From NCBI GenBank assembly GCA_014816205.1, contig GCA_014816205.1_4096.1: DNA of 28,420 bases. One strand, written 5' to 3'. Origin of the DNA: a phage. The notes beneath the pieces are model-generated. The model saw nothing but the letters and a program-made list of their open reading frames with translations. It did not search any database and was not told where the DNA came from. Below are positions 1 to 15,162 of this stretch, piece by piece. How positions within the stretch are numbered: the first letter of the stretch is position 1; the number at the start of each line of letters is the position of its first letter. The position numbers and the translations under genes are program-made.

Positions 1-255
1 TCATCGTCTGTTAAGTATTTCATTTTCATTTACTTTTTCCTTAATAGTGATTTTAAGATATCTAATCATACGTGCAACATATTCCTCTTGTCTATCAGTT
101 CCCAGAAGATATGGTAGTGATTGGAATAATACTTCTGCACTCCTTTCTGCTGGGGTTTGGTTTAGGTCAATTGGACGTTTATTGGTATATCTCTTGGCAC
201 GAACTAATCTCTCGACGTATTCATTATAGGTTAAGTATATCATTTCATTTTGCAT
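1..255 (-). CDS. small protein, tandem paralog family 1 (LGTNYQ-motif family)
   Basis: ORF track; ATG at 255 with AAGGA about 8 nt upstream; motif LPYLLGTDRQEEYV; start overlaps stop of next gene upstream. Confidence 0.6.
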   Translation of the reverse strand: MQNEMIYLTYNEYVERLVRAKRYTNKRPIDLNQTPAERSAEVLFQSLPYLLGTDRQEEYVARMIRYLKITIKEKVNENEILNRR

Positions 256-475
256 TTACTTTTTCCTTAATACTCATTATAAGATGTTCAATCATATTTT
301 GAACCATAAATTCTTGTTTATCAGTTCCAAGAACGTATGGTAGCTTCTGAAACAATACATTTGCAGATACTTCAGATATTGATTGATTTGGAACGAACTT
401 AAGAGTAATGTTTTTGGTTTTTAACATCTTCTCTTGAAATTCTTCATTCGTTAAGTATATCATTTCATTTTGCAT
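245..475 (-). CDS. small protein, paralog family 1
   Basis: ORF track; N-terminus MQNEMIYLT nearly identical to 1..255; motif LPYVLGTDKQEFMV. Confidence 0.6.
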   Translation of the reverse strand: MQNEMIYLTNEEFQEKMLKTKNITLKFVPNQSISEVSANVLFQKLPYVLGTDKQEFMVQNMIEHLIMSIKEKVNAK

Positions 476-691
476 TTACATTCTCTCATATATATTTTGG
501 GTTAAAAGGTCAATCCAGATTTCCACATATCGTTGTTGGTGTTGCGTCCCTAACAGTACACCCAACTTAGCTTCACACTCTAATAACAATCTGGTTTTGT
601 ATGGTAGACTTTGGAATCCTATAGTAGCATCTAATTTGGTAATTGCATAGTTGATTCGGATGAATCTTTCTTGCAATGTGATGTTGTTCAT
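476..691 (-). CDS. small protein, paralog family 1
   Basis: ORF track; motif LLGTQHQQRYV; ATGA stop/start overlap with 688.. gene. Confidence 0.6.
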   Translation of the reverse strand: MNNITLQERFIRINYAITKLDATIGFQSLPYKTRLLLECEAKLGVLLGTQHQQRYVEIWIDLLTQNIYERM

Positions 692-951
692 TTCTTAGTA
701 CACCTCAGTGGTTGGGTCATTTGATAAAAGTACAGCTTACCTTTGATTTCCAGTAGTAACTCCGCGATTAAGCGATTTACTTCTGTATCTTGATAGTTTG
801 TTCCTAAGAATACACCCATCTTTAACTCACGCATCATAATCATTTTCTTACTGTGTTGAATTTCTGGGTTGTGATAGATTGTATTACGTTTGTGCGTAAT
901 TTTTGTCATACGCTCGGTATATTCATCTTTACTTAAATTGATCATTTGCAT
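688..951 (-). CDS. small protein, paralog family 1
   Basis: ORF track 688..978 trimmed to internal ATG at 951 (track M1 is a TTG); GAGG 9 nt upstream; N-terminus MQMINLSKDEY matches family; motif FLGTNYQDTEV. Confidence 0.55.
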   Translation of the reverse strand: MQMINLSKDEYTERMTKITHKRNTIYHNPEIQHSKKMIMMRELKMGVFLGTNYQDTEVNRLIAELLLEIKGKLYFYQMTQPLRCTKK

Positions 952-980
952 GTTCATCAACCTCACATTTATTTTCAATA

Positions 981-1220
981 CTATTCTTTAGTTTGTAGAT
1001 ATAGTTTTCTTCCAATGTATCTCTTAAGTGCGATTATGTATTCATCTACATAATACTCCTGATAGTTTGTTCCTATGAATGCACCCACCTTTAACTCAAG
1101 TTTCATAATCATCTTATTTCCGTGTTTAATGACTTCTCCGTGATGGATTTCATTAAGTCCAGGTGCAATTTTCACCAGGCGTTCTTTATATTTTGCTTGA
1201 GATAATTTAATCATTTTCAT
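981..1220 (-). CDS. small protein, paralog family 1
   Basis: ORF track 981..1247 trimmed to ATG at 1220 (AAGGG upstream); N-terminus MKMIKLSQAKY; motif FIGTNYQEYYV. Confidence 0.55.
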   Translation of the reverse strand: MKMIKLSQAKYKERLVKIAPGLNEIHHGEVIKHGNKMIMKLELKVGAFIGTNYQEYYVDEYIIALKRYIGRKLYLQTKE

Positions 1221-1221
1221 G

Positions 1222-1452
1222 TTAATTACCCTTACATTTATTTTCAATACTATTCATGAGTTCTATAAGATAGTTTTCTACCTTACCTTCCTGATAGTTA
1301 GTCCCTAGGAAGTTGCACAACACGGCTTCTATGATTTTGATTTTCCTGATATCAGGCTTCAATCTTTTGTTATTGAATATTTGAATCCTTATATCTCTGG
1401 ATGCATTTAAACGTTTTTGATATTCATGGTAAGTTAAATGAATCATTTTCAT
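1222..1452 (-). CDS. small protein, paralog family 1
   Basis: ORF track; N-terminus MKMIHLTYHEY; motif FLGTNYQEGKV. Confidence 0.6.
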   Translation of the reverse strand: MKMIHLTYHEYQKRLNASRDIRIQIFNNKRLKPDIRKIKIIEAVLCNFLGTNYQEGKVENYLIELMNSIENKCKGN

Positions 1453-1667
1453 TTACGTTTAACCTCTCGCTGGAGGGCATCAATTAACATCAGTACAGCA
1501 TTCTCTTGATAGTTTGTTCCTAAGACTGAAAGCATCTTTATCTCATTTACTAAAATCAACTTCTTTGAGGGTTCAATAATGTGACTATCATAAACGGCCT
1601 TACGTGCTGGATAAGTTTTCGCCAGTATAACATAAAATTCGTCTTTACTTAAATTAATCATTTGCAT
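1449..1667 (-). CDS. small protein, paralog family 1
   Basis: ORF track; N-terminus MQMINLSKDEF; motif VLGTNYQENAV; ATGA overlap. Confidence 0.6.
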   Translation of the reverse strand: MQMINLSKDEFYVILAKTYPARKAVYDSHIIEPSKKLILVNEIKMLSVLGTNYQENAVLMLIDALQREVKRK

Positions 1668-1876
1668 TTACTTTTAACCTCTTTCTGTAGAGCGTCAATC
1701 CATAGATCTACATACATTTGTTGATAGTTTGTGCCTAAGAGTGCACCTACATAGAGTTCAGTTACTAGTGCGTGCTTAAGGTTAGCTTGGATGCTCTTAT
1801 CGCTTGATATCATTCTCCTTCTGCTTCCACATGTTTTCAGGAGTCTGATGTATTCAAAGCCTTGTAAATTTCTCAT
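1658..1876 (-). CDS. small protein, paralog family 1
   Basis: ORF track; motif LLGTNYQQMYV. Confidence 0.55.
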   Translation of the reverse strand: MRNLQGFEYIRLLKTCGSRRRMISSDKSIQANLKHALVTELYVGALLGTNYQQMYVDLWIDALQKEVKSKCK

Positions 1877-2088
1877 ATTTTGGATACCACCTTGTTACGT
1901 AAGGAACTTAATAATACGTCAGTGTAGATGTTTTGATAGTTTGTCCCTACGAATACACCCAACTTCATTTCAGCTATTATAACACATTTGTCCTCTTGTG
2001 CAATAGATTTGTTTAACACAATACTATACACTTTTGATTTGATAGTTTGTAACCTCCAATGATACTGATACTCATTAAGGATTATCAT
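1873..2088 (-). CDS. small protein, paralog family 1
   Basis: ORF track; motif FVGTNYQNIYT; ATGA overlap. Confidence 0.6.
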   Translation of the reverse strand: MIILNEYQYHWRLQTIKSKVYSIVLNKSIAQEDKCVIIAEMKLGVFVGTNYQNIYTDVLLSSLRNKVVSKI

Positions 2089-2335
2089 TCTCTTTCCTCC
2101 AGATTTCGGTTCTCATGTGTTGGCAGTGTGCATCAATATATTGCTCTATCGATCTGGCGATTGCTGTTTTATCAGTGCCTGTCATCAGTACAAGCATCTC
2201 GGCCTCACAGTGAAGTAAACGCATGATATCATAGGGTAATATTTCAGATACCGTGTCATAGTGTTTCTGTGCCAGTGTCTGCAATAGTTTACAATACATT
2301 TTGTGATTTAGTCTTTGTCGCATTGTTTCTTCCAT
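2075..2335 (-). CDS. small protein, divergent member of paralog family 1
   Basis: ORF track; degenerate motif LMTGTDKTAIARS; start uncertain (alternative ATG at 2323). Confidence 0.45.
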   Translation of the reverse strand: MEETMRQRLNHKMYCKLLQTLAQKHYDTVSEILPYDIMRLLHCEAEMLVLMTGTDKTAIARSIEQYIDAHCQHMRTEIWRKENDNP

Positions 2336-2580
2336 TCTCTTCTGGCTTGGCGGGTTTTATCTGATATTTCGTTTCTCAATGCAGAGATATATCGTAGAGT
2401 GAACAGTTCTTGATAGTTAGTCCCTATGAATTTATTAAGATATACATCAGCGTTGACGATATCAGCTTCACGGGAATTATAAAGTTTATTGTTAGTGCGA
2501 AGGGTGTTTAGAAGAGAGAAGAGGGCAGTCTGATACTCAGTGCTTGATAAAGTTTTCATATTTTTCCACAATTCGTTCAT
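2308..2580 (-). CDS. small protein, paralog family 1
   Basis: ORF track; motif FIGTNYQELFT; start uncertain (alternative ATG at 2559, MKTLSSTEY). Confidence 0.5.
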   Translation of the reverse strand: MNELWKNMKTLSSTEYQTALFSLLNTLRTNNKLYNSREADIVNADVYLNKFIGTNYQELFTLRYISALRNEISDKTRQARREWKKQCDKD

Positions 2581-2734
2581 TTAGTTTTATCTGTATAAGA
2601 TCCATTAGTTGTTCAAGATAATCGGTACAATATTTCTCTTGATATTGGGTTCCCACAAAGTACAGCAACCATAGCTCATGAACTTTAACTTTCATCTCGT
2701 TCCATGAAAGTGCATCGTCCGTCAAGTGTTTCAT
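2537..2734 (-). CDS. small protein, paralog family 1
   Basis: ORF track; motif FVGTQYQEKYC. Confidence 0.55.
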   Translation of the reverse strand: MKHLTDDALSWNEMKVKVHELWLLYFVGTQYQEKYCTDYLEQLMDLIQIKLNERIVEKYENFIKH

Positions 2735-2889
2735 TTACATTTATCCCTTATTAGATTTGTGAGTGCAACTATGTGTTCATGGATATAAAAATTTTGATGA
2801 GAAGTTCCAAGAAAGTACAGCATCCATCCCTCACTCTGCTCGACTTCTAGTTTAGTATCGAGTTGGTCAGATATGTTAATGAAAACCAT
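2731..2889 (-). CDS. small protein (52 aa), paralog family 1; absent from ORF track
   Basis: Hand translation codon by codon: MVFINISDQLDTKLEVEQSEGWMLYFLGTSHQNFYIHEHIVALTNLIRDKCK; ATG overlaps upstream stop; TGA overlaps start of 2537..2734. Confidence 0.5.
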   Translation of the reverse strand: MVFINISDQLDTKLEVEQSEGWMLYFLGTSHQNFYIHEHIVALTNLIRDKCK

Positions 2890-3113
2890 TAGTTCTTTTC
2901 CTTTCTTTCTATTTGTTTCATAAGAACATCGATATACTCACCCGCAAACCTATTCTGATACTGCGTCCCCATGAATTCCAACATCCATACTTCAGCAACC
3001 TTTTCTTCAATTTCAGTCCATTGTAAGTACATCATAGTGAAGTAAATGGTGTTCTCTTTTTTTCTGGCACTCTTAGCACGGGCCTCGTATTCAAAGTTAT
3101 TAATGATGTTCAT
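2889..3113 (-). CDS. small protein, paralog family 1
   Basis: ORF track 2889..3146 trimmed to ATG at 3113 (track M1 is a TTG); motif FMGTQYQNRFA. Confidence 0.5.
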   Translation of the reverse strand: MNIINNFEYEARAKSARKKENTIYFTMMYLQWTEIEEKVAEVWMLEFMGTQYQNRFAGEYIDVLMKQIERKEKN

Positions 3114-3327
3114 TACATTTGTCCATAATGTAATTCTTGAGTGCAACTATGTGTGCAATAACATACTCTTCCTGGAAGTTCGTCCCCAGTACAGCCAACA
3201 TGCGTACATCGGTGGTGTTTATCTTGTGTTCCAATCGAGTTAAACCTTTTATTTGTAAAAGGGTATCGTATTTGTTTAATGCATCAATGATAATTCTCAT
3301 CTTCTCAATATTACTTAAATGTTTCAT
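3100..3327 (-). CDS. small protein, paralog family 1
   Basis: ORF track; motif VLGTNFQEEYV. Confidence 0.6.
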   Translation of the reverse strand: MKHLSNIEKMRIIIDALNKYDTLLQIKGLTRLEHKINTTDVRMLAVLGTNFQEEYVIAHIVALKNYIMDKCNEHH

Positions 3328-3536
3328 AGTTTACTCTTAATGTAGTTCTGAAGTTCAATTAAGTATTTCCCTACATAATACTCCTGAAAGTCTGTATCCA
3401 AAAATGCACCCATAAGTAAATCCTTCTCCATTGCCCTTGATAAGTTAAGGTCTGCATTTGAAAGGTATATAAGTAATATTTCAGTCTGGACAGAATTAAA
3501 ACGTTTCTTATATTCTTCAGGTGTTAATATAATCAT
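3324..3536 (-). CDS. small protein, paralog family 1
   Basis: ORF track; motif FLDTDFQEYYV; ATGA overlap. Confidence 0.6.
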   Translation of the reverse strand: MIILTPEEYKKRFNSVQTEILLIYLSNADLNLSRAMEKDLLMGAFLDTDFQEYYVGKYLIELQNYIKSKL

Positions 3537-3748
3537 AATTTGCTCCTGATGTATTTCTCAAGAGATGACAAATACTTTTCCTCATAATACTCCTGATAGT
3601 CTGTTCCCAAGAATGCACCCAAAAGTATTTCATTTTCCAATACCTCGGCTAAGTTTAAATCAGACGTCTCTTCGTATATTATGAGGATTTCAAGTTGTCT
3701 GGCAGCGATGCGTTCAGTATATTGATATGAGTTTTCTATAATAATCAT
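3533..3748 (-). CDS. small protein, paralog family 1
   Basis: ORF track; motif FLGTDYQEYYE; close paralog of 3324..3536. Confidence 0.6.
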   Translation of the reverse strand: MIIIENSYQYTERIAARQLEILIIYEETSDLNLAEVLENEILLGAFLGTDYQEYYEEKYLSSLEKYIRSKL

Positions 3749-3954
3749 ATTTTACTCTTAATATCTTCTATTAAAAATCGAATCCATTCTTCAACATAAT
3801 CTTCCTGATGGTTTGTGTTCAGTACAGCCAACATGCGGATCTCTGCTCTTGCAACTTCAATTTCAGTTTTAGGCAGGTCTTTGCTGATATCCACCATTAA
3901 GTCCATGTATTTCAAGATAAGACCGTATGATTGGGTTCGTGTTATAGTTTTCAT
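3745..3954 (-). CDS. small protein, paralog family 1
   Basis: ORF track; motif VLNTNHQEDYV. Confidence 0.6.
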   Translation of the reverse strand: MKTITRTQSYGLILKYMDLMVDISKDLPKTEIEVARAEIRMLAVLNTNHQEDYVEEWIRFLIEDIKSKI

Positions 3955-4151
3955 TGTTTCCTCGTGGACAATATTTTATTTTTCAATGTATCCATATATT
4001 GCCACACCCATCTACCCTGATAGTTTGTTCCCAATGTAATCAAAAGGTATAACTCCATTCGTTCTACGTGTGTGTCTGTGTTGTAAATCTTTACGTAGTT
4101 TTTACGTAACAGTGATTGATATTCTTCTTTATTTAAAATACGCATTTTCAT
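3951..4151 (-). CDS. small protein, paralog family 1
   Basis: ORF track; N-terminus MKMRILNKEEY; motif TLGTNYQGRWV. Confidence 0.6.
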   Translation of the reverse strand: MKMRILNKEEYQSLLRKNYVKIYNTDTHVERMELYLLITLGTNYQGRWVWQYMDTLKNKILSTRKQ

Positions 4152-4345
4152 AGTTTACTCGTTATATCTTCAATTAAATACCAAATCCAATCGTTGACAT
4201 ACCTTTCCTGAAAGTTAGTTCCAATGAATAGTGCCATAATTAATTCACGCTTATAGGCAATACCACGGTCATGGGACTTATACATTATCATAGCCATGTT
4301 ATTGATAAGTCTTTCGTGGTGCTGTTCTTTAGTTAAAATACGCAT
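4148..4345 (-). CDS. small protein, paralog family 1; first gene of the array
   Basis: ORF track 4148..4375 trimmed to ATG at 4345 with AAGGGAG 5 nt upstream; motif FIGTNFQERYV. Confidence 0.6.
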   Translation of the reverse strand: MRILTKEQHHERLINNMAMIMYKSHDRGIAYKRELIMALFIGTNFQERYVNDWIWYLIEDITSKL

Positions 4346-4375
4346 AGGGACTCCCTTAAAATTAATATCAATCAT

Positions 4376-4403
4376 ATTTTATACGATTCATATAAAAAGT
4401 CAA
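4376..4403 (-). promoter_or_regulatory. sigma70-like promoter for the family-1 array
   Basis: Minus strand reads TTGACT, 16 bp, TAAAAT directly upstream of the first array gene. Confidence 0.45.
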
Positions 4404-4594
4404 TAACATTTTATTCGTAATACCCCTTTATCGAAGTCGCTAAGGTTACCCGCCCTTTAGCCCCCTACGCATTTTGCCATAGTCCAATCCCTTTTATTTC
4501 AAAAAAGTCAAGGGATTACCTATGCATTTTTTTAACGCATAATTTTAAAAACGCCTTGACTTTTTTCTGAATCAGTACTAGATCACTTTACGCA

Positions 4595-4804
4595 TTAATC
4601 CTTCGTTACGCTAACGATTATCTGTGTATCCCCGTAGTCCTGCCATACTTCCACGCCATCGGTCGCCCTGGTTAGTCGTGCTGTCATCTGCTTAATGGTC
4701 TTAGGCTTTAGTGGAACCTGTTGCAGTACTGTACGCATAGCATCATTGACGTTATCATGTACGCCTGCAATAGTACCTAGAACGCTGTATACTGTATAGA
4801 ACAT
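4595..4804 (-). CDS. hypothetical protein (69 aa)
   Basis: ORF track; AGGAGG 8 nt upstream of ATG. Confidence 0.6.
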   Translation of the reverse strand: MFYTVYSVLGTIAGVHDNVNDAMRTVLQQVPLKPKTIKQMTARLTRATDGVEVWQDYGDTQIIVSVTKD

Positions 4805-4829
4805 ATGTATGCCCTCCTGATATAGTTAA

Positions 4830-4847
4830 GGCCGCTACAAGGCGGCC
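4830..4847 (-). terminator. hairpin (GGCCGC/GCGGCC) followed on minus strand by TTAACTATAT
   Basis: Inverted repeat just downstream of the 4873.. gene; U-rich tail is weak. Confidence 0.35.
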
Positions 4848-4872
4848 TATGATGTTTGGTGATGTGTAACGC

Positions 4873-5274
4873 TTACAGTCCTAAGATAGTGCGTGCTTCG
4901 TTACGTTCCGTACACAGCTGCATGATGTGAGCAAGTAAGTCCTTGCTAATGTATCCGGTGTTCATAGCTTCACGAATAGATACATCATACGCACCGAACC
5001 CCGTGCGAACGATACGCACATCATTCAGGTTAGTATTATAGATACCGCCGAGATCAACGGCTTCGAATACTACATCAACAGAATATTCATTGTTGCCATC
5101 GTGGAAGTTTTCCAGTGCAATAGTATTGGATACCGCCCAACGTTTGCAGTTTCCAATGATGCGGCACTGTTCCGGTTGGATAGTACCATTACTTACAGCG
5201 TACTCCAGTGCATCTTTACCAAAAGTCCGAGCCAGTACTAAAACGTCAGCGAAGGAATTGATTGAGAAGGTCAT
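4873..5274 (-). CDS. hypothetical protein (133 aa)
   Basis: ORF track 4873..5307 trimmed to ATG at 5274 with AGGAG upstream; track N-terminus reads through the promoter cassette. Confidence 0.6.
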   Translation of the reverse strand: MTFSINSFADVLVLARTFGKDALEYAVSNGTIQPEQCRIIGNCKRWAVSNTIALENFHDGNNEYSVDVVFEAVDLGGIYNTNLNDVRIVRTGFGAYDVSIREAMNTGYISKDLLAHIMQLCTERNEARTILGL

Positions 5275-5363
5275 GATAAAACTCCTTAATTTAGGAGGGA
5301 GAACCATTTCCCCCTCTCTATGTAAAACATTATACTTGATTCTAAGTACTATGCAAGTACTTT
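5275..5363 (-). promoter_or_regulatory. PeSL-like cassette: promoter (TTGCAT...TATAAT), leader hairpin, RBS
   Basis: RC of atgcaa at 5351-5356 and attata at 5329-5334; GC-rich inverted repeat about 5296-5316. Confidence 0.5.
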
Positions 5364-5696
5364 TTACATTTTAATACCTGGATTCAGATAGCGGTGAGAA
5401 CCATATTCTGGATCGGTTTCGGTCCAGTACTGTAAATCGATAGTACCTTTCGCGTTAATCTTGTCTACCAGCTTATTCATCTTAGCGTATACTACGTCAG
5501 CATCGATGCGTTTAAAGCCAGTAGCTTTAGTGAAGTAGTAGTGATTTGCTTCACTATCATTAAGGATATACCGAGCACCGTTTGCAGTCTGTGCGATAAT
5601 GATTGAGTATTCTACTTCCCGATCCAGACCGTCGATGAATACAGATGAAACATTGGTACGGATGAAAGCTTTAACGATAGCGATTGAAGTACTCAT
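5364..5696 (-). CDS. hypothetical protein (110 aa)
   Basis: ORF track; AGGAG upstream of ATG at 5696. Confidence 0.6.
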   Translation of the reverse strand: MSTSIAIVKAFIRTNVSSVFIDGLDREVEYSIIIAQTANGARYILNDSEANHYYFTKATGFKRIDADVVYAKMNKLVDKINAKGTIDLQYWTETDPEYGSHRYLNPGIKM

Positions 5697-5844
5697 TTTG
5701 AATCTCCTAACTTTGTGGACCGTCGCACCATTGCCGCCCTACGAGATACATTATTGCAGTACTGATATACTTTGTCAATACTTTTTATTAATAGTTTTCA
5801 CTCCACCAGCAGATAGTTACTCACCGTTATTAACTATATATTTT

Positions 5845-5930
5845 AGATACACCTATGCACCCTGTGGGCTAGTTTTTGTCTATGCGTATATAATAGCAAA
5901 GGGACTGACCGGAGTCAATCCCTTTTTTAT
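5845..5930. repeat. composite intergenic repeat, copy 1 (19-nt motif + terminator hairpin)
   Basis: tgcaccctgtgggctagt about 5857-5874; hairpin gggactgaccggagtcaatccc 5901-5922 followed by tttttt. Confidence 0.6.
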
Positions 5931-5939
5931 TCTTTTTTG

Positions 5940-6140
5940 TTAGATGATTCTCCAATCTTCTACGATGATTGTAAGATACCGGACCAACGATTCTAGTGAT
6001 TCGTGTTCTCGATAGTCTGCCGCTCCACCAGCGGTACAAGTACAGCCGATTAAACCATTTTGCAATTCCTTAATCTGTACATCGATAAGGTTGGCTTTAG
6101 CTTCTTTCAGTACTTCAACCAGGGCGAGAGCGATAGACAT
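5940..6140 (-). CDS. hypothetical protein (66 aa)
   Basis: ORF track; GGAG upstream. Confidence 0.55.
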   Translation of the reverse strand: MSIALALVEVLKEAKANLIDVQIKELQNGLIGCTCTAGGAADYREHESLESLVRYLTIIVEDWRII

Positions 6141-6230
6141 AATGTTTTACTCCAAACTATTGGCGGGAGAACTATTCCCCCGCTCTATGTAAAACATTAT
6201 ACATTACTGGTTAGTACTGTCAAATAGTTT
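6141..6230 (-). promoter_or_regulatory. PeSL-like promoter/hairpin cassette
   Basis: Minus strand TTGACA, 16 bp, TATAAT, then hairpin GCGGGGGAATAGTTCTCCCGC. Confidence 0.5.
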
Positions 6231-6488
6231 TTATGAAATATCTTCGATGTAGTCGGCCCATTTCATTTTTTCAGTACTGTCAATTGCTACCGGATTATTT
6301 GGATCAAACCATTCACCATTACCGCAGTACATACCAACGGCAACGGTTTTATAGCCATCCTGGGCAGTACTCCACGCCATCGCACGATAGATATGGCCTT
6401 TAACTGGTTGCAGTACTGGTAACGTTTTATGGTCTTCTACGTAGGCCATAGCTTGAGGATTTACCCGATATTGTGTGAATTGTTCCAT
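6231..6488 (-). CDS. hypothetical protein (85 aa)
   Basis: ORF track 6231..6521 trimmed to ATG at 6488 with AGGGGA upstream. Confidence 0.55.
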   Translation of the reverse strand: MEQFTQYRVNPQAMAYVEDHKTLPVLQPVKGHIYRAMAWSTAQDGYKTVAVGMYCGNGEWFDPNNPVAIDSTEKMKWADYIEDIS

Positions 6489-6563
6489 GATGTTTCCCCT
6501 TGTAGTTAGTAAAGTTATCATATCAGTACTATCAAGCTATGTCAATAGTACTGAAATAAAACT

Positions 6564-6788
6564 TTAGATTAGATTATTGATGCCGTTGATGGTAGACTCG
6601 CTTTCTTCTTTCTCCCATTGGCGGTAGTACTTCCATGCTTCATGATATGTGGCGATTAGTTCATCTTTTTGATCCTGAGTACATGCCAGTACTGAATCAC
6701 GATGAGCGGTGTTATAGATAGAATCGAATGATTTCTTCTCTTCTGCCAGGTTAGCTACTTCCCGCATCAGTTCATCAAAGTTAGCCAT
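6564..6788 (-). CDS. hypothetical protein (74 aa)
   Basis: ORF track; AAGGAG upstream; starts MA. Confidence 0.6.
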   Translation of the reverse strand: MANFDELMREVANLAEEKKSFDSIYNTAHRDSVLACTQDQKDELIATYHEAWKYYRQWEKEESESTINGINNLI

Positions 6789-6852
6789 TTTAGTACTCCT
6801 TTTAGTGGGGGAGGATATCTCCCCCTATGCAAAACATTATACTTTGTTTTAG
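6789..6852 (-). promoter_or_regulatory. PeSL-like promoter/hairpin cassette
   Basis: Minus strand TTGCAA...TATAAT then hairpin GGGGGAGATATCCTCCCCC. Confidence 0.5.
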
Positions 6853-7119
6853 TTACTTTGCAAGTACTTTTTTCATATAAAGATTATATTCTACACCGCC
6901 GTAACCTTCTAAGATGATATGTTTTGCGTTATCACGTTTGCACATAGTGAAACCGTTGTTGATGTGTTCTGCATTTTCCAGGGCTACATCACCGATTGCA
7001 GCACATACAGCACTTACAACGGTATTCCGCAAAGTACTGGTATCATTAGCGGTCATAGTAGTTTGCAGTACTACGTTGTCGTATACGTGTGCATTGATAG
7101 TGATTTCGATAGTGTTCAT
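6853..7119 (-). CDS. hypothetical protein (88 aa)
   Basis: ORF track. Confidence 0.55.
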   Translation of the reverse strand: MNTIEITINAHVYDNVVLQTTMTANDTSTLRNTVVSAVCAAIGDVALENAEHINNGFTMCKRDNAKHIILEGYGGVEYNLYMKKVLAK

Positions 7120-7205
7120 GGTGTATCTCCCGGACTGGCGGGAGAACTATTCCCCCGCTCTATGTAAAACATTATACGTTAATCTAACTACAATGCAAGT
7201 ACTTT
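7120..7205 (-). promoter_or_regulatory. PeSL-like promoter/hairpin cassette
   Basis: gcgggagaactattcccccgc hairpin plus RC of TATAAT and TTGCAT. Confidence 0.5.
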
Positions 7206-7397
7206 TTAAATTTTATTTCCGATATAGTCCGGTCTATTCTTTTCGGTCATACGCTTTGCTAATGTTTGCATATGGCTTATTGCGTTTAATGTGTCTTCCT
7301 CCAGGGATGAATCAACATAATCAGGATCATTCTTAACCTTGCAATGGTTATGATAGCGTAGTACTGCCAGTACTTTTTTAACTTCTTCAACTGTCAT
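7206..7397 (-). CDS. hypothetical protein (63 aa)
   Basis: ORF track; ATGA overlap with 7394.. gene. Confidence 0.55.
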   Translation of the reverse strand: MTVEEVKKVLAVLRYHNHCKVKNDPDYVDSSLEEDTLNAISHMQTLAKRMTEKNRPDYIGNKI

Positions 7398-7666
7398 AAT
7401 AAGTATTCCACTTCGTTAGCTTTCAGGTTAGTATCAATCATCAGTGGATTTTTGTAGTTCACAAAACGATTAGTTTTCTCGATAGCGAATCCCATATAAT
7501 CCAGCTTACTAACAGTACATTCATTCTTAAAAACTTCTTTCGCTGCATTGATGGCTGATTCAATTGATAACCGACCATCTAAGTTAATGTTTCCAAATGA
7601 TCCACCAGCAGAAGTAGGATTACCGTTCATATCTTTAATGATCATAGTAGCGGAGTAGCTAGACAT
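7394..7666 (-). CDS. hypothetical protein (90 aa)
   Basis: ORF track. Confidence 0.6.
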   Translation of the reverse strand: MSSYSATMIIKDMNGNPTSAGGSFGNINLDGRLSIESAINAAKEVFKNECTVSKLDYMGFAIEKTNRFVNYKNPLMIDTNLKANEVEYLL

Positions 7667-7750
7667 AATTTTGTTTCCTTTTAGTATCGGGGAGAACTAT
7701 TCTCCCCTTGATGTAAACTATTATACAGTACTAAGATACTTTGTCAATAC
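7667..7750 (-). promoter_or_regulatory. PeSL-like promoter/hairpin cassette
   Basis: ggggagaactattctcccc hairpin; minus strand TTGACA, 16 bp, TATAAT; 3' part shared with cassettes at 10524 and 10795. Confidence 0.55.
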
Positions 7751-7972
7751 TTAATTACGTTTAAAATGATATGTGCCTTTATCATCCTGTACGCCCCATA
7801 CTGATTTACCATCAACACCAGTGAAACCGGATTGTAATTCAATATGGAAACCATTATTATCAACTACAAAAACTTTTTTATTTTCATCCCGATAACATTG
7901 ATATTCTGAATCAACATTAAAGGCCGCATCATTCAGAAGATTGGAAGCGTAAATGCAAGTCATTGTAGTCAT
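7751..7972 (-). CDS. hypothetical protein (73 aa)
   Basis: ORF track 7751..8047 trimmed to ATG at 7972 with AAGGA upstream; track N-terminus is the translated hairpin. Confidence 0.55.
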   Translation of the reverse strand: MTTMTCIYASNLLNDAAFNVDSEYQCYRDENKKVFVVDNNGFHIELQSGFTGVDGKSVWGVQDDKGTYHFKRN

Positions 7973-8107
7973 GATTTTATTCCTTATTGCCAGGGAGAAC
8001 CATTTCCCCCTCTCGATATAAAACATTATACTTGATTCTAAGTACAATGCAAGTACTTTTTATCAAATACTTTAAAATAGTTTTCAGTACTGAATACTTA
8101 TATAATA

Positions 8108-8197
8108 GATACACTTATGCACCCTGTGGGTCAGTGAGTTATCTCTCAATGAATATATATTAGCAAAGGGACTGACCGGAGTCAATCCCTTTTTTAA
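8108..8197. repeat. composite intergenic repeat, copy 2
   Basis: tgcaccctgtgggtcagtg 8118-8136; hairpin gggactgaccggagtcaatccc 8168-8189 plus tttttt. Confidence 0.6.
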
Positions 8198-8203
8198 TCT
8201 TTT

Positions 8204-8788
8204 TTATCGTGTTATAGTTACGGCTTTTACATCACGCTTTTTATAGTACTGATTCCAGATATTGCGGGTTAAACCGTAATCAAGTACTTTAATAAGTCCA
8301 TTACGATCCTGGCCGATATTCTGTTTTCTGATATCTCTTATCGTTAGTGTTGATAATGTATCATCGACGTGTTGTAGTGCATCAGCAAAGCGGTGCTGGC
8401 GTTCAATGGCATTACGTTTAATATTGTACTTTAATTCGTTGCACGCGTTAACGTGCTTCACACTGCCTTTACTTGCAGTACTCAACCGATCCATAACGAT
8501 AAACATATTATCAGGATCGCATAAATGCATATGCACCTTTGCAAAGTACTGTTTCAATTGAGGGCGGTCATAGTCTAAAAAATTCCATACCTTACATTCA
8601 GTTTCATTTTGTTCTACACCCGCATCACAATTGGCGACCTTAATCACTAACCGATCATTTAAAGCGAATACAATACGGGAAGAACCCGCACCGATGATCT
8701 CCAGACCAGCTAACCGACAAGCTGAAAGGATCTCTTTGTTGGTTTCCATTTCTGACAGGGTACGGATGAATTTAGTATAATTACGCAT
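8204..8788 (-). CDS. minimal protein-kinase-like protein (194 aa)
   Basis: ORF track 8204..8845 trimmed to ATG at 8788 with AAGGAG upstream; motifs IGAGSSRIVF (Gly loop), VIKVA (Lys), IRDIRKQNIG (catalytic loop), KVLDYGL (DFG-like). Confidence 0.55.
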   Translation of the reverse strand: MRNYTKFIRTLSEMETNKEILSACRLAGLEIIGAGSSRIVFALNDRLVIKVANCDAGVEQNETECKVWNFLDYDRPQLKQYFAKVHMHLCDPDNMFIVMDRLSTASKGSVKHVNACNELKYNIKRNAIERQHRFADALQHVDDTLSTLTIRDIRKQNIGQDRNGLIKVLDYGLTRNIWNQYYKKRDVKAVTITR

Positions 8789-8819
8789 TGCATGTTCTCC
8801 TTGAGTTAATGAAACTATC

Positions 8820-9062
8820 TTACAGTACTTTACTATCAATGGCAACCACTTTTTTCACACTAACCGCGTGAATCACTTCCTTAGTGTTTTTAGTACTGAA
8901 TACTTTCGCTGTTCCATGTTCTACTGCAATGCGATAACGACCGTTAACATCAACCATATTAATAAAGTCCGGTGTACTAAACCGAGTAGTACGGCATTTC
9001 AGTACTGTTAACAGTTCCACCAGCGATGTAGTTTCTTTGATACGTTTTTCTAAAGTAATCAT
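8820..9062 (-). CDS. hypothetical protein (80 aa)
   Basis: ORF track 8820..9119 trimmed to ATG at 9062; track N-terminus MTVLKCF... is the translated promoter region. Confidence 0.55.
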   Translation of the reverse strand: MITLEKRIKETTSLVELLTVLKCRTTRFSTPDFINMVDVNGRYRIAVEHGTAKVFSTKNTKEVIHAVSVKKVVAIDSKVL

Positions 9063-9119
9063 TTTGTTTTCCCCGTGTTGGTATGTACATATAGTACTAA
9101 AACATTTGAGTACTGTCAA

Positions 9120-9338
9120 TTAGATAATTGCATATTTCTTTAAAGATAATGCGTCTTGGGTTGGCTGATACTCAATGCCGTTACCGTTATCTACTTTAAC
9201 TAATAAACCTTTGTCAATTAGTTTTTTAATAGTCCTTTGGCCTTGTTGAAAATTGGTAAAATGTGAATCATTACGAAAGGTATAACCGTGCTTAACTGCT
9301 TCATCAATAGTTTTCTTTTCGATTTTAGATAATTTCAT
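9120..9338 (-). CDS. hypothetical protein (72 aa)
   Basis: ORF track 9120..9395 trimmed to ATG at 9338; same promoter-module artefact as 8820 gene. Confidence 0.55.
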   Translation of the reverse strand: MKLSKIEKKTIDEAVKHGYTFRNDSHFTNFQQGQRTIKKLIDKGLLVKVDNGNGIEYQPTQDALSLKKYAII

Positions 9339-9391
9339 TTTGTTTCTCCCGTGTTGGTATGTGTACATAATACTAAAACAATTGAGTACTG

Positions 9392-9646
9392 TCAACGTGA
9401 TATTAGTTTTATTTTCTTATTATATTGTTGATGTTCATAAAGGTTTATCTTTCCTGTGTTCTCTATTACTATTCTGTTGTTAGTGTCTACATCGATTACA
9501 CGCAGTTTTCCGTTGCTTAACTTCCTTGGTAATAGGTTACCATTAATAAACTCATTAGCAAGCTGTACGGCCTTTGTGATGATTCTCTGTGGTGCTTTAT
9601 AGTGTACCCGCAAGATATTATCTTTAGATAGTTGTACCTTAATCAT
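9392..9646 (-). CDS. hypothetical protein (84 aa)
   Basis: ORF track; AGGAT upstream. Confidence 0.55.
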   Translation of the reverse strand: MIKVQLSKDNILRVHYKAPQRIITKAVQLANEFINGNLLPRKLSNGKLRVIDVDTNNRIVIENTGKINLYEHQQYNKKIKLISR

Positions 9647-9661
9647 TTTAGTTTATCCTAT

Positions 9662-9686
9662 AAAAAAGGCGGGAACTGATCCCGCC
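9662..9686 (-). terminator. rho-independent terminator
   Basis: Hairpin ggcgggaactgatcccgcc 9668-9686 followed on minus strand by TTTTTT; immediately downstream of 9709.. gene. Confidence 0.65.
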
Positions 9687-9708
9687 GTGTTGTTAGTACT
9701 GCAAGTTA

Positions 9709-10104
9709 TTAGATAACCTGGCGGCGTTTACTGTATACTGTTACACGATTACCCTTACGGTCGTGTCGGATCTCTTTCTGGTTGCGTACCAGTTCACTTG
9801 GACGCTTAAGGTTTGCCAGGTGATCCGCGTGAGTCCAAGCGGTATGGTTTGTCTGTACTTTGATATCAGAATCAGCGATAAATTCATCTTGTGCGTTAAG
9901 TACTGCCGCCAGTAAATCCGCTCGTTTTAGTTCTGCTGCTGTTAGTACTGGCTCCGGTGAATTCACAATATCAGAGATTTCTTTGAACTGTACGGCCCAG
10001 CGTTGGCCTTTCGGTGCATCTTTGCCCATGTCTTTAAATGCTGCTCCTTCCTCGCGTGCAACAATACGGGCAGCTTCACGGGTAGCGTAGAATTTAGTAA
10101 TCAT
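9709..10104 (-). CDS. hypothetical protein (131 aa); paralog of 22751..23014
   Basis: ORF track trimmed to ATG at 10104 with AGGA 8 nt upstream; shares KFYATREAARI...FKDMG and RKGNRVTVY with 22751 gene. Confidence 0.6.
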   Translation of the reverse strand: MITKFYATREAARIVAREEGAAFKDMGKDAPKGQRWAVQFKEISDIVNSPEPVLTAAELKRADLLAAVLNAQDEFIADSDIKVQTNHTAWTHADHLANLKRPSELVRNQKEIRHDRKGNRVTVYSKRRQVI

Positions 10105-10199
10105 GGTATACATCCTATTAGTTAAGTTAGTACTACAAGTTAGAGTCTATTATAAAGTACTATCTGGGCAATGTCAAATAGTACTTTAAATGGATTCTA

Positions 10200-10523
10200 T
10201 TACATATCTTTCTTACGTTTTACATCGTAGTATCGAACTGTTATTTCTTTGTTAATCTCTTTTTCGATGCGGTGAATAACTTTTTCTTTCGGGTTGAAAC
10301 CTATAACGGTTTCTTTAATGATCTCCAAGCCCGTGTATTCGCCTTGTGTGCCGTAACCGTATGTAAAGGTTTCATGTCCCAGGTCTTCCCAACGATCACC
10401 AATTAACGCAGACACGTAGCAAGAGTGGTAAGTATTGCCGTGTGAATCAGTCCACCGATTAACTTTAATGTCAAAGGAGGTTACAATTTTCAGTTCTACT
10501 TTCTGGGCAAGGATCATAGCCAT
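10200..10523 (-). CDS. hypothetical protein (107 aa); paralog of 16617..16940
   Basis: ORF track trimmed to ATG at 10523; shares RWTDSxGNTYHSC and FTYGY and KRKKD with 16617 gene. Confidence 0.6.
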   Translation of the reverse strand: MAMILAQKVELKIVTSFDIKVNRWTDSHGNTYHSCYVSALIGDRWEDLGHETFTYGYGTQGEYTGLEIIKETVIGFNPKEKVIHRIEKEINKEITVRYYDVKRKKDM

Positions 10524-10616
10524 TTTTATTTCTCTCTCTTTGTTAGGAGGGGAACCGTTTCCCCTCACTTGATGTAAACTATTATACAGTACTAAGATAC
10601 TTTGTCAATACTTATT
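10519..10616 (-). promoter_or_regulatory. PeSL-like cassette, near-identical direct repeat of 10790-10886
   Basis: About 95 bp matching the cassette at 10790-10886 except in the hairpin arms. Confidence 0.6.
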
Positions 10617-10794
10617 TTTTGGAAAGTTTACGCATTAATTCTACGCTTTCTTGTGAACGTTTTGCTACCTGGCAAGCTGCATGGACAGTAAACATTTTTG
10701 TATAGTCTGACGGTTTGTCACCGAACCGAGCGGCACGTTCACGGGCACTTGGAACTAATACGATTTCTTTCTTACAGATAGTGCATTTAGCCAT
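10612..10794 (-). CDS. small Cys-containing protein (60 aa), possible zinc-binding
   Basis: ORF track; CTIC...HAAC pattern. Confidence 0.5.
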   Translation of the reverse strand: MAKCTICKKEIVLVPSARERAARFGDKPSDYTKMFTVHAACQVAKRSQESVELMRKLSKK

Positions 10795-10886
10795 TTTTAT
10801 TTCTCTCTCTTTGTTAGGAGGGGAACCATTCCCCCTCTCGATGTAAACTATTATACAGTACTAAGATACTTTGTCAATACTTAATT
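10790..10886 (-). promoter_or_regulatory. PeSL-like cassette, direct repeat of 10519-10616
   Basis: Minus strand TTGACA...TATAAT, hairpin GGGGAATGGTTCCCC, leader AACAAAGAGAGAGAAATAAAAATG. Confidence 0.6.
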
Positions 10887-11156
10887 ATTGTAAATGTCGT
10901 GAATAGTGATAAAGTTTTTACGACCGTAAACCTGCAAATCAATATCAATGTAGTGCTTATCTAGTACATCCTCGACGCTTAACGCGGTGTCGTGGATATC
11001 TTCGTAGAATTGAGGATCTACAATCTTGCTTAAGTCATCCGGCGTTAACTCATCGTTAAGCCGTTGAACCGCCTGGATATCTGCTTCACGTTTCCAGTCT
11101 TCCAGGTTAGTAGTCAGTACTTGTTCGATTTCGTTAGCTGTCAGTAGAATCCGCAT
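10881..11156 (-). CDS. hypothetical acidic protein (91 aa)
   Basis: ORF track. Confidence 0.55.
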   Translation of the reverse strand: MRILLTANEIEQVLTTNLEDWKREADIQAVQRLNDELTPDDLSKIVDPQFYEDIHDTALSVEDVLDKHYIDIDLQVYGRKNFITIHDIYNN

Positions 11157-11225
11157 TTTAATGTTTCCTTATCAGTGGTTGATGTAAGTATTATACTCGT
11201 TTACTTTCTATTGTCAAACTATTTT

Positions 11226-11298
11226 ATCAGGGGAGGTTTTCTTATGTCTTACTCCTGGACTACTTAACGGGGTTACTTGTTTCGTTCCCCGTCCTGAT
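11226..11298 (-). promoter_or_regulatory. structured leader element, copy 1
   Basis: Closing stem ATCAGG/CCTGAT enclosing hairpin ACGGGG...CCCCGT; sits between two tandem minus-strand promoters. Confidence 0.4.
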
Positions 11299-11379
11299 GT
11301 AAAACATTATACTTGATTCTAAGTACAATGCAAGTACTTTTTTAAAAATAGTTTTCAGTACTAGCCACCAGCAAACAAT

Positions 11380-11466
11380 AGATACATTTATGCACCCTGT
11401 GGGCTGATTTGTTTCTATGCGTATATAATAGCAAAGGGACTGACCGGAGTCAATCCCTTTTTCAAT
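11380..11466. repeat. composite intergenic repeat, copy 3
   Basis: tgcaccctgtgggctgatt 11391-11409; hairpin 11436-11457 plus ttttt. Confidence 0.6.
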
Positions 11467-11471
11467 TATTT

Positions 11472-11621
11472 TTAAACTTGTTTCGGGTTGCGATAGGTGA
11501 TAGCGTTCGGGTACATTTGTTTAATGTTATTCCATGCCTGGTTAACATTGTAACCACTTGAGCGAATCAGTTGGTTGCTACCGACACCTTGAAACACTAC
11601 TTCGAATAAGAATTCTTTCAT
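11472..11621 (-). CDS. small protein (49 aa), absent from ORF track
   Basis: Hand translation codon by codon: MKEFLFEVVFQGVGSNQLIRSSGYNVNQAWNNIKQMYPNAITYRNPKQV; start overlaps upstream TGA. Confidence 0.45.
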   Translation of the reverse strand: MKEFLFEVVFQGVGSNQLIRSSGYNVNQAWNNIKQMYPNAITYRNPKQV

Positions 11622-11791: not shown

Positions 11792-11880
11792 TTTATTACT
11801 CCTGATTGCGTTAATACTTCTACTATTGCATGAATGATCATAAGTACAGCTAAAACAATAATCATCGGATTCATTTGCAT
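11788..11880 (-). CDS. small hydrophobic peptide (30 aa), absent from ORF track
   Basis: Hand translation: MQMNPMIIVLAVLMIIHAIVEVLTQSGVIK; AAGGAG 8 nt upstream; first of three coupled small genes. Confidence 0.4.
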   Translation of the reverse strand: MQMNPMIIVLAVLMIIHAIVEVLTQSGVIK

Positions 11881-11897
11881 AAGCTGTACTCCTTATA

Positions 11898-15160: not shown

Positions 15161-15162
15161 AT

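What the first reader, a model, noticed from the sequence alone, without database searches (positions are those of the whole stretch)
4404..4594. Mutually exclusive hairpins between the 4595 gene and the family-1 promoter
Seen in sequence (minus-strand reading): stem GTCAAGG...CCTTGAC encloses a 40-nt loop that itself contains a TATGC/GCATA hairpin, and is followed by TTTTTTG, so it looks like a terminator. The 3' arm CCCTTGAC can instead pair with downstream AAGGGATT (8 bp). The two structures share a segment and cannot both form. Inference: an attenuator or antiterminator-like switch, or simply a degenerate copy of the composite repeat's terminator (the plus strand reads caatcccttttatttc). 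It would control read-through from upstream genes into the paralog array.
Basis: inference. Interest (0 to 1): 0.4.

Follow-up and report, generated by a model that had tools for sequence, protein, structure and literature searches.

The report
Terminal-repeat boundary with terminator-like hairpin
The two "competing hairpins" lie on the inner edge of this jumbo phage's 21-kb terminal repeat: the large one looks like an oddly shaped transcription stop, the small one is a by-product of conserved DNA signals that mark where the genome end is cut, and there is no evidence of a regulatory switch.

Summary
The window is an Asteriusvirus (121Q/PBECO4/G17-like) jumbo coliphage. Only the large hairpin (4498-4566, minus strand, -22.7 kcal/mol, z -5.3, followed by U6) exceeds chance. 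The 8-bp alternative (AAUCCCUU/AAGGGAUU) is weak (z -1.25; equilibrium probability 0.0006). Its partner lies 3' of the U-tract, so it cannot decide termination. It is absent in several relatives.

The main result is positional. The interval straddles the right boundary of the ~21-kb direct terminal repeat (DTR). Linear GenBank records and published PhageTerm and restriction data place the physical genome end at window 4443|4442, 152 nt after the last DTR gene.

The last ~85 nt before the cut align without gaps across four or more genera. They contain ATGCATAGGTAATCCCTT, then TGGACTATG exactly 35 nt from the cut, then CT|TAGC. The 9-mer GTCRCTA|AG occurs only twice in the window, at the two DTR ends and facing inward. 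This fits the classical staggered-nick model.

Best reading: an atypical terminator-like hairpin closing the last DTR operon, followed by the cis-acting genome-end signal, then the promoter of the paralog array. The switch idea is not supported.

The parts
4595..4804 (-). Last gene of the direct terminal repeat (69 aa, unknown function). With the 144-aa gene at 4873-5307 it forms the last DTR operon, driven by a promoter near 5360.
   Evidence: ORF list. phrog_17833 and phrog_10173, both of unknown function. Orthologues in the same position before the DTR end in fENko-Kae01, Munch, EJP2, A4 and two IMG/VR genomes.
4498..4566 (-). Large hairpin plus U-run. Outer stem 4566-4554 / 4513-4501, conserved inner stem 4553-4547 / 4531-4525, loop 4546-4532, bulge 4524-4514, U6 4506-4501. 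Proposed atypical intrinsic terminator of the last DTR operon.
   Evidence: Fold -22.7 kcal/mol, z -5.26. Core -15.9 kcal/mol and probability 0.999. Pair counts on six variants including the Klebsiella phage: inner stem 100% paired, and two outer-stem pairs changed on both sides in fENko-Kae01. Not listed by the simple terminator scan and not annotated by ARNOLD in G17.
4486..4517 (-).
   Evidence: I8. Weak and not above chance. Probability 0.0006. Partner absent in CBB, EJP2 and Kae01.
4443..4527 (-). Conserved terminus module, the last ~85 nt of the DTR. B1 is ATGCATAGGTAATCCCTT (4527-4510). A TTGACTTTTTT run follows (4511-4501). B2 is GATTGGACTATG (4489-4478), which ends exactly 35 nt before the cut. 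B3 is CTAAAGGGCGGGTAACCT (4460-4443).
   Evidence: Gap-free alignment anchored at the cut: window-CBB 55/90 (z 7.5), window-EJP2 53/90, EJP2-CBB 61/90. The 35-nt spacing holds in the window, Turkey5, JNE01, EJP2, Kae01, CBB, L050, L171 and L172.
4436..4444 (+). Right DTR cut site: GTCGCTA|AG on the plus strand, which reads AACCT|TAGCGAC on the minus strand. The physical genome end lies between 4443 and 4442.
   Evidence: The records of G17, vB_Ec-M-J, CRJP21 and E9.1 end or begin exactly at 4443. WPEC5 and WPEC3 show the same 152-nt tail. The annotated DTR 1..21525 in vB_Ec-M-J agrees. fEgEco12 has a DTR of 20,993 bp by PhageTerm and restriction digests, which also gives a 152-nt tail. The 9-mer occurs only twice in the window.
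4376..4403 (-). Sigma-70-type promoter (TTGACT, 16 nt, TAAAAT) of the paralog array. It lies 40 nt outside the DTR. The first array gene starts at ATG 4345 (RBS AAGGGAG), not at 4375.
   Evidence: Promoter scan. G17 annotates a 198-nt gene. A promoter at this position is kept in most relatives.
25492..25500 (-). Left DTR cut site: GTCACTA|AG on the minus strand, with the cut between 25494 and 25493. It is the inverted counterpart of the right site. The DTR spans 4443-25493 (21,051 bp).
   Evidence: The records begin at window 25493. Motif search. Left junction CCCCTTCCGCTA|TATC is conserved in Kae01, CBB and four IMG/VR jumbo genomes.

Best explanation
The interval is the right-hand (inner) boundary of the phage's ~21-kb direct terminal repeat. 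On the coding (minus) strand the order is as follows.

1. The stop codon of the last DTR gene.
2. A stable long hairpin that runs into U6. It most likely acts as an architecturally atypical intrinsic terminator. It would close the last DTR operon, keep polymerase from running off the right genome end, and in the left copy keep it from reading into the neighbouring unit.
3. An ~85-bp cis-acting genome-end signal with blocks at fixed distances from the cut. The DNA is cut after GCTA on the plus strand (GTCGCTA|AG).
4. Forty nucleotides further, the promoter of the paralog array.

An inverted copy of the cut motif (GTCACTA|AG) marks the other DTR end. One site-specific nicking activity, presumably terminase, could therefore nick opposite strands 21 kb apart, and 3'-end extension would then duplicate the repeat.

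The 'alternative hairpin' is incidental complementarity between two blocks of the end signal and does not regulate anything.

Shown: the position of the genome end, the conservation and spacing of the blocks, the motif at both ends, and the fold statistics. Inferred: termination at the hairpin, nicking at GCTA, and which protein reads the blocks.
For: **Genome end**
- Four linear records stop exactly at 4443 and start at 25493.
- vB_Ec-M-J carries a DTR annotation.
- Published data agree: fEgEco12 20,993 bp by PhageTerm plus digests, Sharanji 20,668 bp, G17 about 20 kb, fENko-Kae01 19,736 bp, CBB 22,456 bp.

**Conserved signal**
- All right junctions read CT|TAGC.
- TGGACTATG sits exactly 35 nt from the cut in nine lineages.
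- Gap-free identity has z up to 8.1 against other offsets.
- GTCRCTAAG occurs only at the two ends, facing inward, against 0.21 expected in the whole window.
- GCTA| lies at the left junction of six other large genomes whose upstream flanks are unrelated.
- The staggered-nick and extension model for DTRs is the textbook one (PMC5557969).

**Terminator**
- Hairpin z is -5.3, followed by U6.
- The core stem is fully formed when the U-run emerges.
- Wobble-tolerant changes keep the inner stem on the sense strand only.
- The plus-strand fold is weaker, -16.3 kcal/mol.
- Most lineages have some hairpin of different sequence between the stop codon and block B1. Eight of eleven are stable, and most are followed by four or more U.
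- A promoter follows the boundary in most relatives.
Against: **Against the terminator reading**
- The hairpin is not a canonical terminator. It has 40 nt between the arms and an 11-nt bulge.
- It was missed by the consensus scan and by the ARNOLD annotation of G17.
- The same DTR holds compact canonical terminators, for example at 9686-9668 and 18992-18972.
- The 3' arm and T-run lie inside the block conserved at the DNA level, so their conservation may not be due to RNA function.
- JNE01 and L050 lack a stable hairpin.
- Salmonella SD-15 phages have lost the downstream promoter, so they would need read-through.
- There are no transcript data.

**Against the nick-site reading**
- Apart from the cut motif, the two DTR ends show no significant inverted similarity.
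- PhageTerm positions could be off by a base.
- Some GenBank records may have been oriented by copying earlier ones.
Confidence: 0.62

Rival explanations
1. Attenuator or antiterminator switch. The 3' arm alternates between the terminator stem and the downstream AAGGGAUU, and this tunes read-through into the paralog array.
For: The two pairings share 4510-4513 and cannot coexist. The 8-bp pairing also occurs in a CBB-like contig, L050, and in shifted form in Turkey5 and JNE01.
Against: The partner lies 3' of the U-tract, so it is made after the termination decision. Its probability is 0.0006 against 0.999, and it forms only if the 5' arm is blocked artificially. z is -1.25. The partner is absent in CBB, EJP2 and Kae01. 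There is no Rfam match. The stop codon is 35 nt from GUCAAGG, too far for a ribosome to mask it.
Confidence: 0.04
2. The inverted repeat acts on DNA, not RNA. It would be a cruciform or single-strand hairpin used when the genome end is made or packaged (as proposed for a T7 hairpin intermediate), or during injection (as for the palindrome-rich T5 stop signal). The U-run would then be part of the protein-recognised module.
For: The repeat lies 55-123 nt inside the physical end. The hairpin-to-cut distance is 64 nt in the window and 65 nt in Kae01. TTGAC/GTCAA arms recur in the window, Kae01, CBB and A4 with loops of 7-48 nt, which fits a hairpin rather than a B-DNA dimer site. The T-run and 3' arm lie in the gap-free conserved block. 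The T5 DTR end is likewise non-coding and palindrome-rich (10.1101/866236).
Against: The 5' arm lies in the variable part. Turkey5, JNE01, EJP2 and L050 keep the same cut site and blocks without this inverted repeat. Wobble pairs are tolerated only on the sense strand. The left end has no counterpart beyond a small 6-bp repeat.
Confidence: 0.2
3. A relic without function. The hairpin and the alternative pairing would be debris from recombination among the many promoter/terminator composite repeats and paralog gene starts in this region.
For: TTGACTTTTT is shared with the -35 region of the neighbouring promoter and occurs in both arms (D4 and I4). GAAATAAAAGGGATTGGACT resembles the 5' arm of the composite repeat. 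AAATGCRTAGG occurs three times and resembles the paralog start ATGCGTA. The region is a recombination hotspot, with different sequence in Turkey5, A4 and EJP2, a deletion in SD-15 and a replacement in PBECO4.
Against: A homologous hairpin with compensatory changes is present in a different genus. The blocks are at fixed distance from the cut in four or more genera. The hairpin z-score is -5.3.
Confidence: 0.1

Closest known systems
Fixed-end direct terminal repeats made by staggered nicks and 3' extension (T7/T3; long DTRs of T5 and SPO1), as summarised in the PhageTerm paper (PMC5557969)
   Same: Exact, reproducible ends. A repeat present once per concatemer junction. Here the same short motif lies at both boundaries on opposite strands, which is what a staggered-nick mechanism predicts. 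Early genes with host-type promoters fill the repeat and point away from the left end, as in T5.
   Different: The repeat is 21 kb in a 350-kb myovirus whose packaging enzymes have not been studied. No cut-site or recognition sequence has been reported for this group in the papers I could read. Nicking, as opposed to double-strand cutting, is inferred and not shown.
Lambda cos (cosQ-cosN-cosB): a multipartite end signal with subsites at fixed spacing
   Same: Several short conserved blocks lie in fixed register next to the cut, on one side of it. The cut is placed at a set distance (35 nt) from a recognition block.
   Different: There are no cohesive ends and no sequence similarity. The proteins that would bind are unknown. 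This comparison rests on my knowledge of lambda and was not tested here.
Intrinsic (rho-independent) terminators, including bidirectional ones with A-run / hairpin / U-run
   Same: Stable hairpin directly followed by U6. A symmetric A6 upstream, so both strands read hairpin plus U-run. Position just after a stop codon and before a new promoter.
   Different: The 40-nt structured interior and 11-nt bulge are far outside the usual 3-10-nt loop. Standard predictors do not call it. The phage's other terminators are compact.
Non-coding, palindrome-rich inner end of the T5 left terminal repeat (injection stop signal region; 10.1101/866236)
   Same: A non-coding stretch with inverted repeats at the inner end of a long DTR full of early genes. 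It is conserved among relatives while neighbouring genes vary.
   Different: The T5 region is about 1.6 kb with DnaA boxes and many repeat families. Here it is 152 nt with one hairpin. Two-step injection is not known for these phages.
Transcription attenuators (trp-type leader, T-box, riboswitch expression platforms)
   Same: Two mutually exclusive helices share one strand of a terminator stem.
   Different: In attenuators the competitor lies upstream and forms first, and a sensor decides. Here the competitor lies downstream of the U-tract, is about 16 kcal/mol weaker taken alone, and no sensor is present.

Membership tests
Intrinsic terminator | Stable stem directly followed by a U-run on the transcribed strand | tested here: met
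   Core stem GUCAAGG/CCUUGAC with four G-C pairs, then U6. -15.9 kcal/mol when the U-run emerges.
Intrinsic terminator | Compact hairpin (loop about 3-10 nt) that standard predictors recognise | tested here: not met
   40 nt between the arms. Not in the consensus scan. No ARNOLD terminator annotated here in G17, although neighbouring ones are.
Intrinsic terminator | Located at the end of a transcription unit, with the next unit having its own promoter | tested here: met
   28 nt after the stop codon of the 69-aa gene. Promoter at 4403-4376. A promoter is kept after the boundary in most relatives.
Intrinsic terminator | Transcript 3' ends at the U-run in vivo | not testable with these tools
   No transcript data found for this group of phages.
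Attenuator / antiterminator switch | The competing helix forms before the terminator (partner 5' of the terminator) | tested here: not met
   Partner AAGGGAUU (4493-4486) lies 8-15 nt beyond the end of the U-run.
Attenuator / antiterminator switch | The two conformers have comparable stability | tested here: not met
   Probability 0.999 against 0.0006. The alternative alone is -6.6 kcal/mol with z -1.25.
Attenuator / antiterminator switch | Both helices conserved in relatives | tested here: not met
   The alternative partner is absent in CBB, EJP2 and fENko-Kae01. The large hairpin is absent in Turkey5, JNE01 and EJP2.
Attenuator / antiterminator switch | A sensor (leader peptide, aptamer or protein site) | tested here: inconclusive
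   No Rfam match even at E <= 1. No leader ORF placed to mask the 5' arm. A protein site cannot be excluded.
Fixed genome end of a DTR phage | Coincides with experimentally determined physical ends | tested here: met
   Record ends at 4443 and 25493. fEgEco12 by PhageTerm and restriction digests gives the same 152-nt tail. PhageTerm for Sharanji and Kae01.
Fixed genome end of a DTR phage | Sequence around the cut conserved among relatives, more than the flanks | tested here: met
   CT|TAGC invariant. TGGACTATG then 35 nt to the cut in nine lineages. Gap-free z up to 8.1. Left junction conserved with unrelated flanks.
Fixed genome end of a DTR phage | Same recognition or cut motif at both repeat boundaries | tested here: met
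   GTCRCTA|AG occurs only at 4436-4444 (+) and 25500-25492 (-). GCTA| at both ends in Kae01 and CBB.
Fixed genome end of a DTR phage | Cleavage or nicking by the phage terminase at this site | not testable with these tools
   Needs biochemistry or genetics.
Composite promoter/terminator repeat of this genome (5925, 8192, 11460, 15156) | Complete hairpin AAAGGGATTGACTCCGGTCAGTCCCTTT followed by GCTATTATAT | tested here: not met
   Only about 20 nt resembling the 5' arm (GAAATAAAAGGGATTGGACT). No 3' arm and no -10 element.

The most novel reading that the evidence does not exclude
The 152-nt tail would be the cis-acting end-making and packaging signal of the RaK2-like jumbo phages. An inward-facing GCTA| nick site would mark each DTR boundary. 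At the right boundary the site would be positioned by a 'ruler' (TGGACTATG, then exactly 35 nt, then the cut) and by the block ATGCATAGGTAATCCCTT. The terminator-like hairpin and U-run would be physically built into this signal, so transcription termination or pausing could be coupled to end formation, as T7 RNA polymerase pausing is at the T7 concatemer junction (that comparison is from my own knowledge).
Probability: 0.35. Interest if true: 0.6.

Novelty: new member of a known kind. Interest (0 to 1): 0.38.

Why it matters
As a regulatory switch the finding is ordinary and probably wrong. What is there is more useful. It gives a base-precise, cross-genus description of where and in what sequence context a group of 350-kb phages makes its genome ends.

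No cut-site motif or recognition block was reported in the genome papers I could read. Those papers give only repeat lengths.

- The inward-facing GCTA| motif is sequence-level support for the staggered-nick model in phages with very long repeats, and it makes that model directly testable.
- The conserved CTATG-N35-TAGC signature lets the ends of related genomes and metagenomic contigs be placed without read-level data. Many deposited genomes of this group are arbitrarily permuted.
- For phage engineering it marks a short region that probably must not be disturbed.

Tried and rejected
- **tRNA/tmRNA and Rfam scans.** Nothing found, neither at gathering score on the whole window nor at E <= 1 on 4300-4700.
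- **Hairpin arms as -35 elements of real promoters.** Neither TTGACT has a usable -10 at 16-18 nt, in the window, Kae01 or CBB (sequence read).
- **GTAATC(A) as a shared end-binding motif.** It clusters only at the left end (five copies at 25412-25632), with a single copy at the right end.
- **Inverted similarity between the first 110 nt inside the two DTR ends.** Not significant: 68/500, 19/500 and 437/500 shuffles.
- **The 23-nt, 19/23 complementarity between 4510-4532 and the RBS/start of the first paralog gene.** Marginal, 9/200 shuffles, and relevant only to read-through RNA.
- **IMG/VR scan with the 14-mer ATAGGTAATCCCTT.** The 16-base spaced pattern gave two true relatives out of 20.
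- **Protein families of the flanking genes.** Only families of unknown function.
- **The predicted inner stem TATGC/GCATA.** Rejected as the conserved structure in favour of CGUUUUU/AAAAAUG.
- **RaK2.** It has the 69-aa homologue but no non-coding tail after it, so it was uninformative.

Full report
**What the window is.** A 1.5-kb stretch around the finding is 99.9% identical to Escherichia phages vB_EcoM_G17 and Sharanji. It is 92-99% identical to about 40 other Asteriusvirus jumbo phages, including 121Q, PBECO4 and slurp01. All genes in the region are on the minus strand. The finding interval 4404-4594 is the 219-nt gap between a 69-aa gene (4595-4804) and a head-to-tail array of small paralogous genes. 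The first of these really starts at ATG 4345, not at 4375.

**Checking the observation.**
- The large hairpin is real and longer than reported. AAAAAAGTCAAGG (4566-4554) pairs perfectly with CCTTGACTTTTTT (4513-4501), with 40 nt in between.
- As RNA the 69-nt element folds at -22.7 kcal/mol (z = -5.26; none of 200 shuffles as good). The opposite strand gives only -16.3 kcal/mol.
- The 8-bp alternative, AAUCCCUU (4517-4510) with AAGGGAUU (4493-4486), is present. It gives -6.6 kcal/mol, z = -1.25, and 23 of 200 shuffles do as well.
- Over the whole segment, the ensemble gives the large hairpin a probability of 0.999 and the alternative 0.0006. The alternative appears only when the 5' arm is artificially blocked.

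**Why it is not a switch.**
- The competitor lies 3' of the U-run. Polymerase would already have passed the termination point before AAGGGAUU is made. Known antiterminators act from the 5' side.
- The stop codon is 35 nt from GUCAAGG, too far for a terminating ribosome to mask the arm.
- Rfam finds nothing, even at E <= 1.
- The partner AAGGGATT is missing in Pectobacterium phage CBB, Escherichia phage EJP2 and Klebsiella phage fENko-Kae01. CBB and EJP2 keep the AATCCCTT-side block; in fENko-Kae01 that block has diverged.

**The key fact: this is the end of the genome.**
- In phage vB_Ec-M-J the annotated 'Direct Terminal Repeats' feature (1..21525) ends inside the interval.
- The linear records of G17, vB_Ec-M-J, CRJP21 and E9.1 all stop (or, in the other orientation, start) exactly at window 4443...GGGCGGGTAACCT | TAGCGACTTCG... 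on the minus strand. Their other end maps to window 25493.
- WPEC5 and WPEC3 have the same 152-nt tail after the 69-aa gene.
- Published work reports:
  - 20,993-bp repeats in fEgEco12 by PhageTerm, confirmed by restriction digests (PMC13070987). With the gene position this again gives a 152-nt tail.
  - 20,668 bp in Sharanji by PhageTerm (PMC11895373), equal to the value I compute for G17.
  - About 20 kb in G17 from coverage (PMC6563267).
- In the window the repeat therefore spans 4443-25493 (21,051 bp). The paralog array and its promoter (4403-4376) are the first unique sequence next to the left repeat copy. Positions 25494-28420 are the other unique end, joined as in a concatemer.

**Comparison with relatives.**
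- Within Asteriusvirus the large hairpin is kept in the main clade. It is replaced by unrelated sequence in Turkey5/JNE01, A4 and EJP2.
- A different inner stem, CGUUUUU/AAAAAUG, is paired in all six variants, with G.U to A-U and C-G to U.G changes.
- fENko-Kae01 shares only about 29% nucleotide identity with this genus and has a 19,736-bp repeat by PhageTerm (PMC11218385). It has orthologues of the last two genes, a 145-nt tail, and a homologous long hairpin followed by UUUUCUAU. Two outer-stem pairs are changed on both sides.
- Most lineages have some stable hairpin between the stop codon and the conserved block (8 of 11), and most of these are followed by four or more U.

**The conserved end signal.** I anchored ten sequences at the cut: five Asteriusvirus lineages, fENko-Kae01, CBB (repeat of 22,456 bp from read depth, PMC5259590) and three IMG/VR contigs.
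- The last ~85 nt line up without gaps: window-CBB 55/90 identical (z 7.5 against other offsets), window-EJP2 53/90, EJP2-CBB 61/90 (z 8.1).
- ATGCATAGGTAATCCCTT (4527-4510) is identical in the window and CBB.
- TGGACTATG (4486-4478) is followed by exactly 35 nt to the cut in nine lineages, although those 35 nt differ.
- The junction always reads CT|TAGC.
The 5' arm of the large hairpin does not.

**Both ends carry the same cut motif.**
- The reverse complement of the right junction is GTCGCTA|AG. The left junction reads GTCACTA|AG.
- GTCRCTAAG occurs exactly twice in the 28,420-nt window, at 4436-4444 (+) and 25500-25492 (-). That is at the two cuts, in the same register and facing inward. 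Only 0.21 copies are expected anywhere in the window.
- In fENko-Kae01 and CBB both ends also read GCTA|.
- The left junction CCCCTTCCGCTA|TATC is conserved in six large genomes whose upstream flanks are unrelated.
[quoted passage not shown] A nick after GCTA on each strand would create both mature 5' ends (5'-AGTAGG... and 5'-AGGTTACC...).
- Nicking itself is inferred. Beyond the motif, the two ends are not significantly similar.

**What the hairpin most likely does.** I favour an intrinsic terminator for the last operon of the repeat.
- In favour: it is stable, it runs into U6, it is fully formed when the U-run emerges, it tolerates wobble changes only on the sense strand, and a fresh promoter follows it.
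- Against:
  - Its shape is far from canonical.
  - Neither the consensus scan nor ARNOLD in the G17 record calls it.
  - The repeat contains ordinary compact terminators elsewhere.
  - Its 3' arm and T-run may be conserved for DNA-level reasons.
  - The Salmonella SD-15 phages have lost the downstream promoter.
- A DNA-level role in end formation is the main rival, by analogy with a T7 hairpin intermediate (from my own knowledge) or the palindrome-rich end of the T5 repeat (10.1101/866236). Several lineages keep the cut site and blocks without this inverted repeat, which argues against that role.

**Verdict.**
- Observation: partly confirmed. Both pairings are there, but only one is meaningful.
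- Interpretation: partly supported. Terminator-like, yes. Switch, no.
- What is really there: the right boundary of the terminal repeat, with a conserved multi-block genome-end signal and an inward-facing cut motif shared with the other end.
- My rough confidences are: position of the genome end about 0.95, no switch about 0.9, hairpin terminates transcription about 0.55, GCTA| is the actual nick site about 0.5.

Noticed in passing
window 24595-24685: Tandem array with nested periods of 8, 16 and 32 bp (unit TAGCCGTC / TCCAGACGTCTAGCCA). It lies in the ORF-free first ~1.4 kb of the terminal repeat, about 800-900 nt from the left genome end.
   Followed up: no
window 25406-25429 and 25574-25632: Repeats of TGATTAC(A/T)T (GTAATCA on the minus strand) phased at 10 bp, on both sides of the left genome end. 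There are five copies within 220 nt and none elsewhere on that strand. This could be a protein-binding array at the left cut.
   Followed up: partly
window 25473-25489; L022 1-23; L181, L184: A small inverted repeat sits at the extreme left end of the genome: GGCAGAggaagTCTGCC, 4 nt from the end. fENko-Kae01 and two IMG/VR genomes have TATCTTCTCT..AGAGAAG(T)ATA starting at base 1. The position is conserved but the sequence is not.
   Followed up: partly
window 4335-4357 versus 4510-4532: A 23-nt stretch in the 3' half of the hairpin is 19/23 complementary to the ribosome-binding site and start codon of the first paralog gene. This is marginal (9 of 200 shuffles) and could matter only on read-through transcripts.
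   Followed up: partly
window 5298-25144 (16-22 copies): A repeated module of a strong sigma-70-type promoter, then GTTTTACAT, then a 5'-UTR hairpin (GGGGAGAAnnnTTCTCCCC), then an RBS. It precedes most small genes of the terminal repeat (families D1-D7).
   Followed up: no
window 5898-5925, ~8165-8192, 11433-11460, 15129-15156: Composite repeat whose hairpin AAAGGGATTGACTCCGGTCAGTCCCTTT contains a -35 hexamer (TTGACT) and is followed by an extended -10 (TGCTATTAT). G17 annotates it as a terminator. So a terminator-like hairpin and a promoter are superimposed.
   Followed up: no
L019 (Salmonella phage SD-15_S21), L014 (PBECO4): About 20 nt beyond the cut site, homology breaks. SD-15 phages have lost the paralog-array promoter by a deletion between AAAGG repeats. 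PBECO4 carries a different promoter and gene there. The repeat boundary is a recombination hotspot.
   Followed up: partly
L011 (Escherichia phage Turkey5): Tandem duplication of about 80 nt covering the end of the 69-aa gene and a small ATGCAT..ATGCAT+U6 hairpin. A second ACCTTAGCG copy lies 64 nt upstream of the real junction in both Turkey5 and JNE01.
   Followed up: no
window 1-4375: About 20 overlapping head-to-tail genes of 65-96 aa form one paralog family (phrog_4148, unknown function), directly adjacent to the left repeat copy.
   Followed up: no
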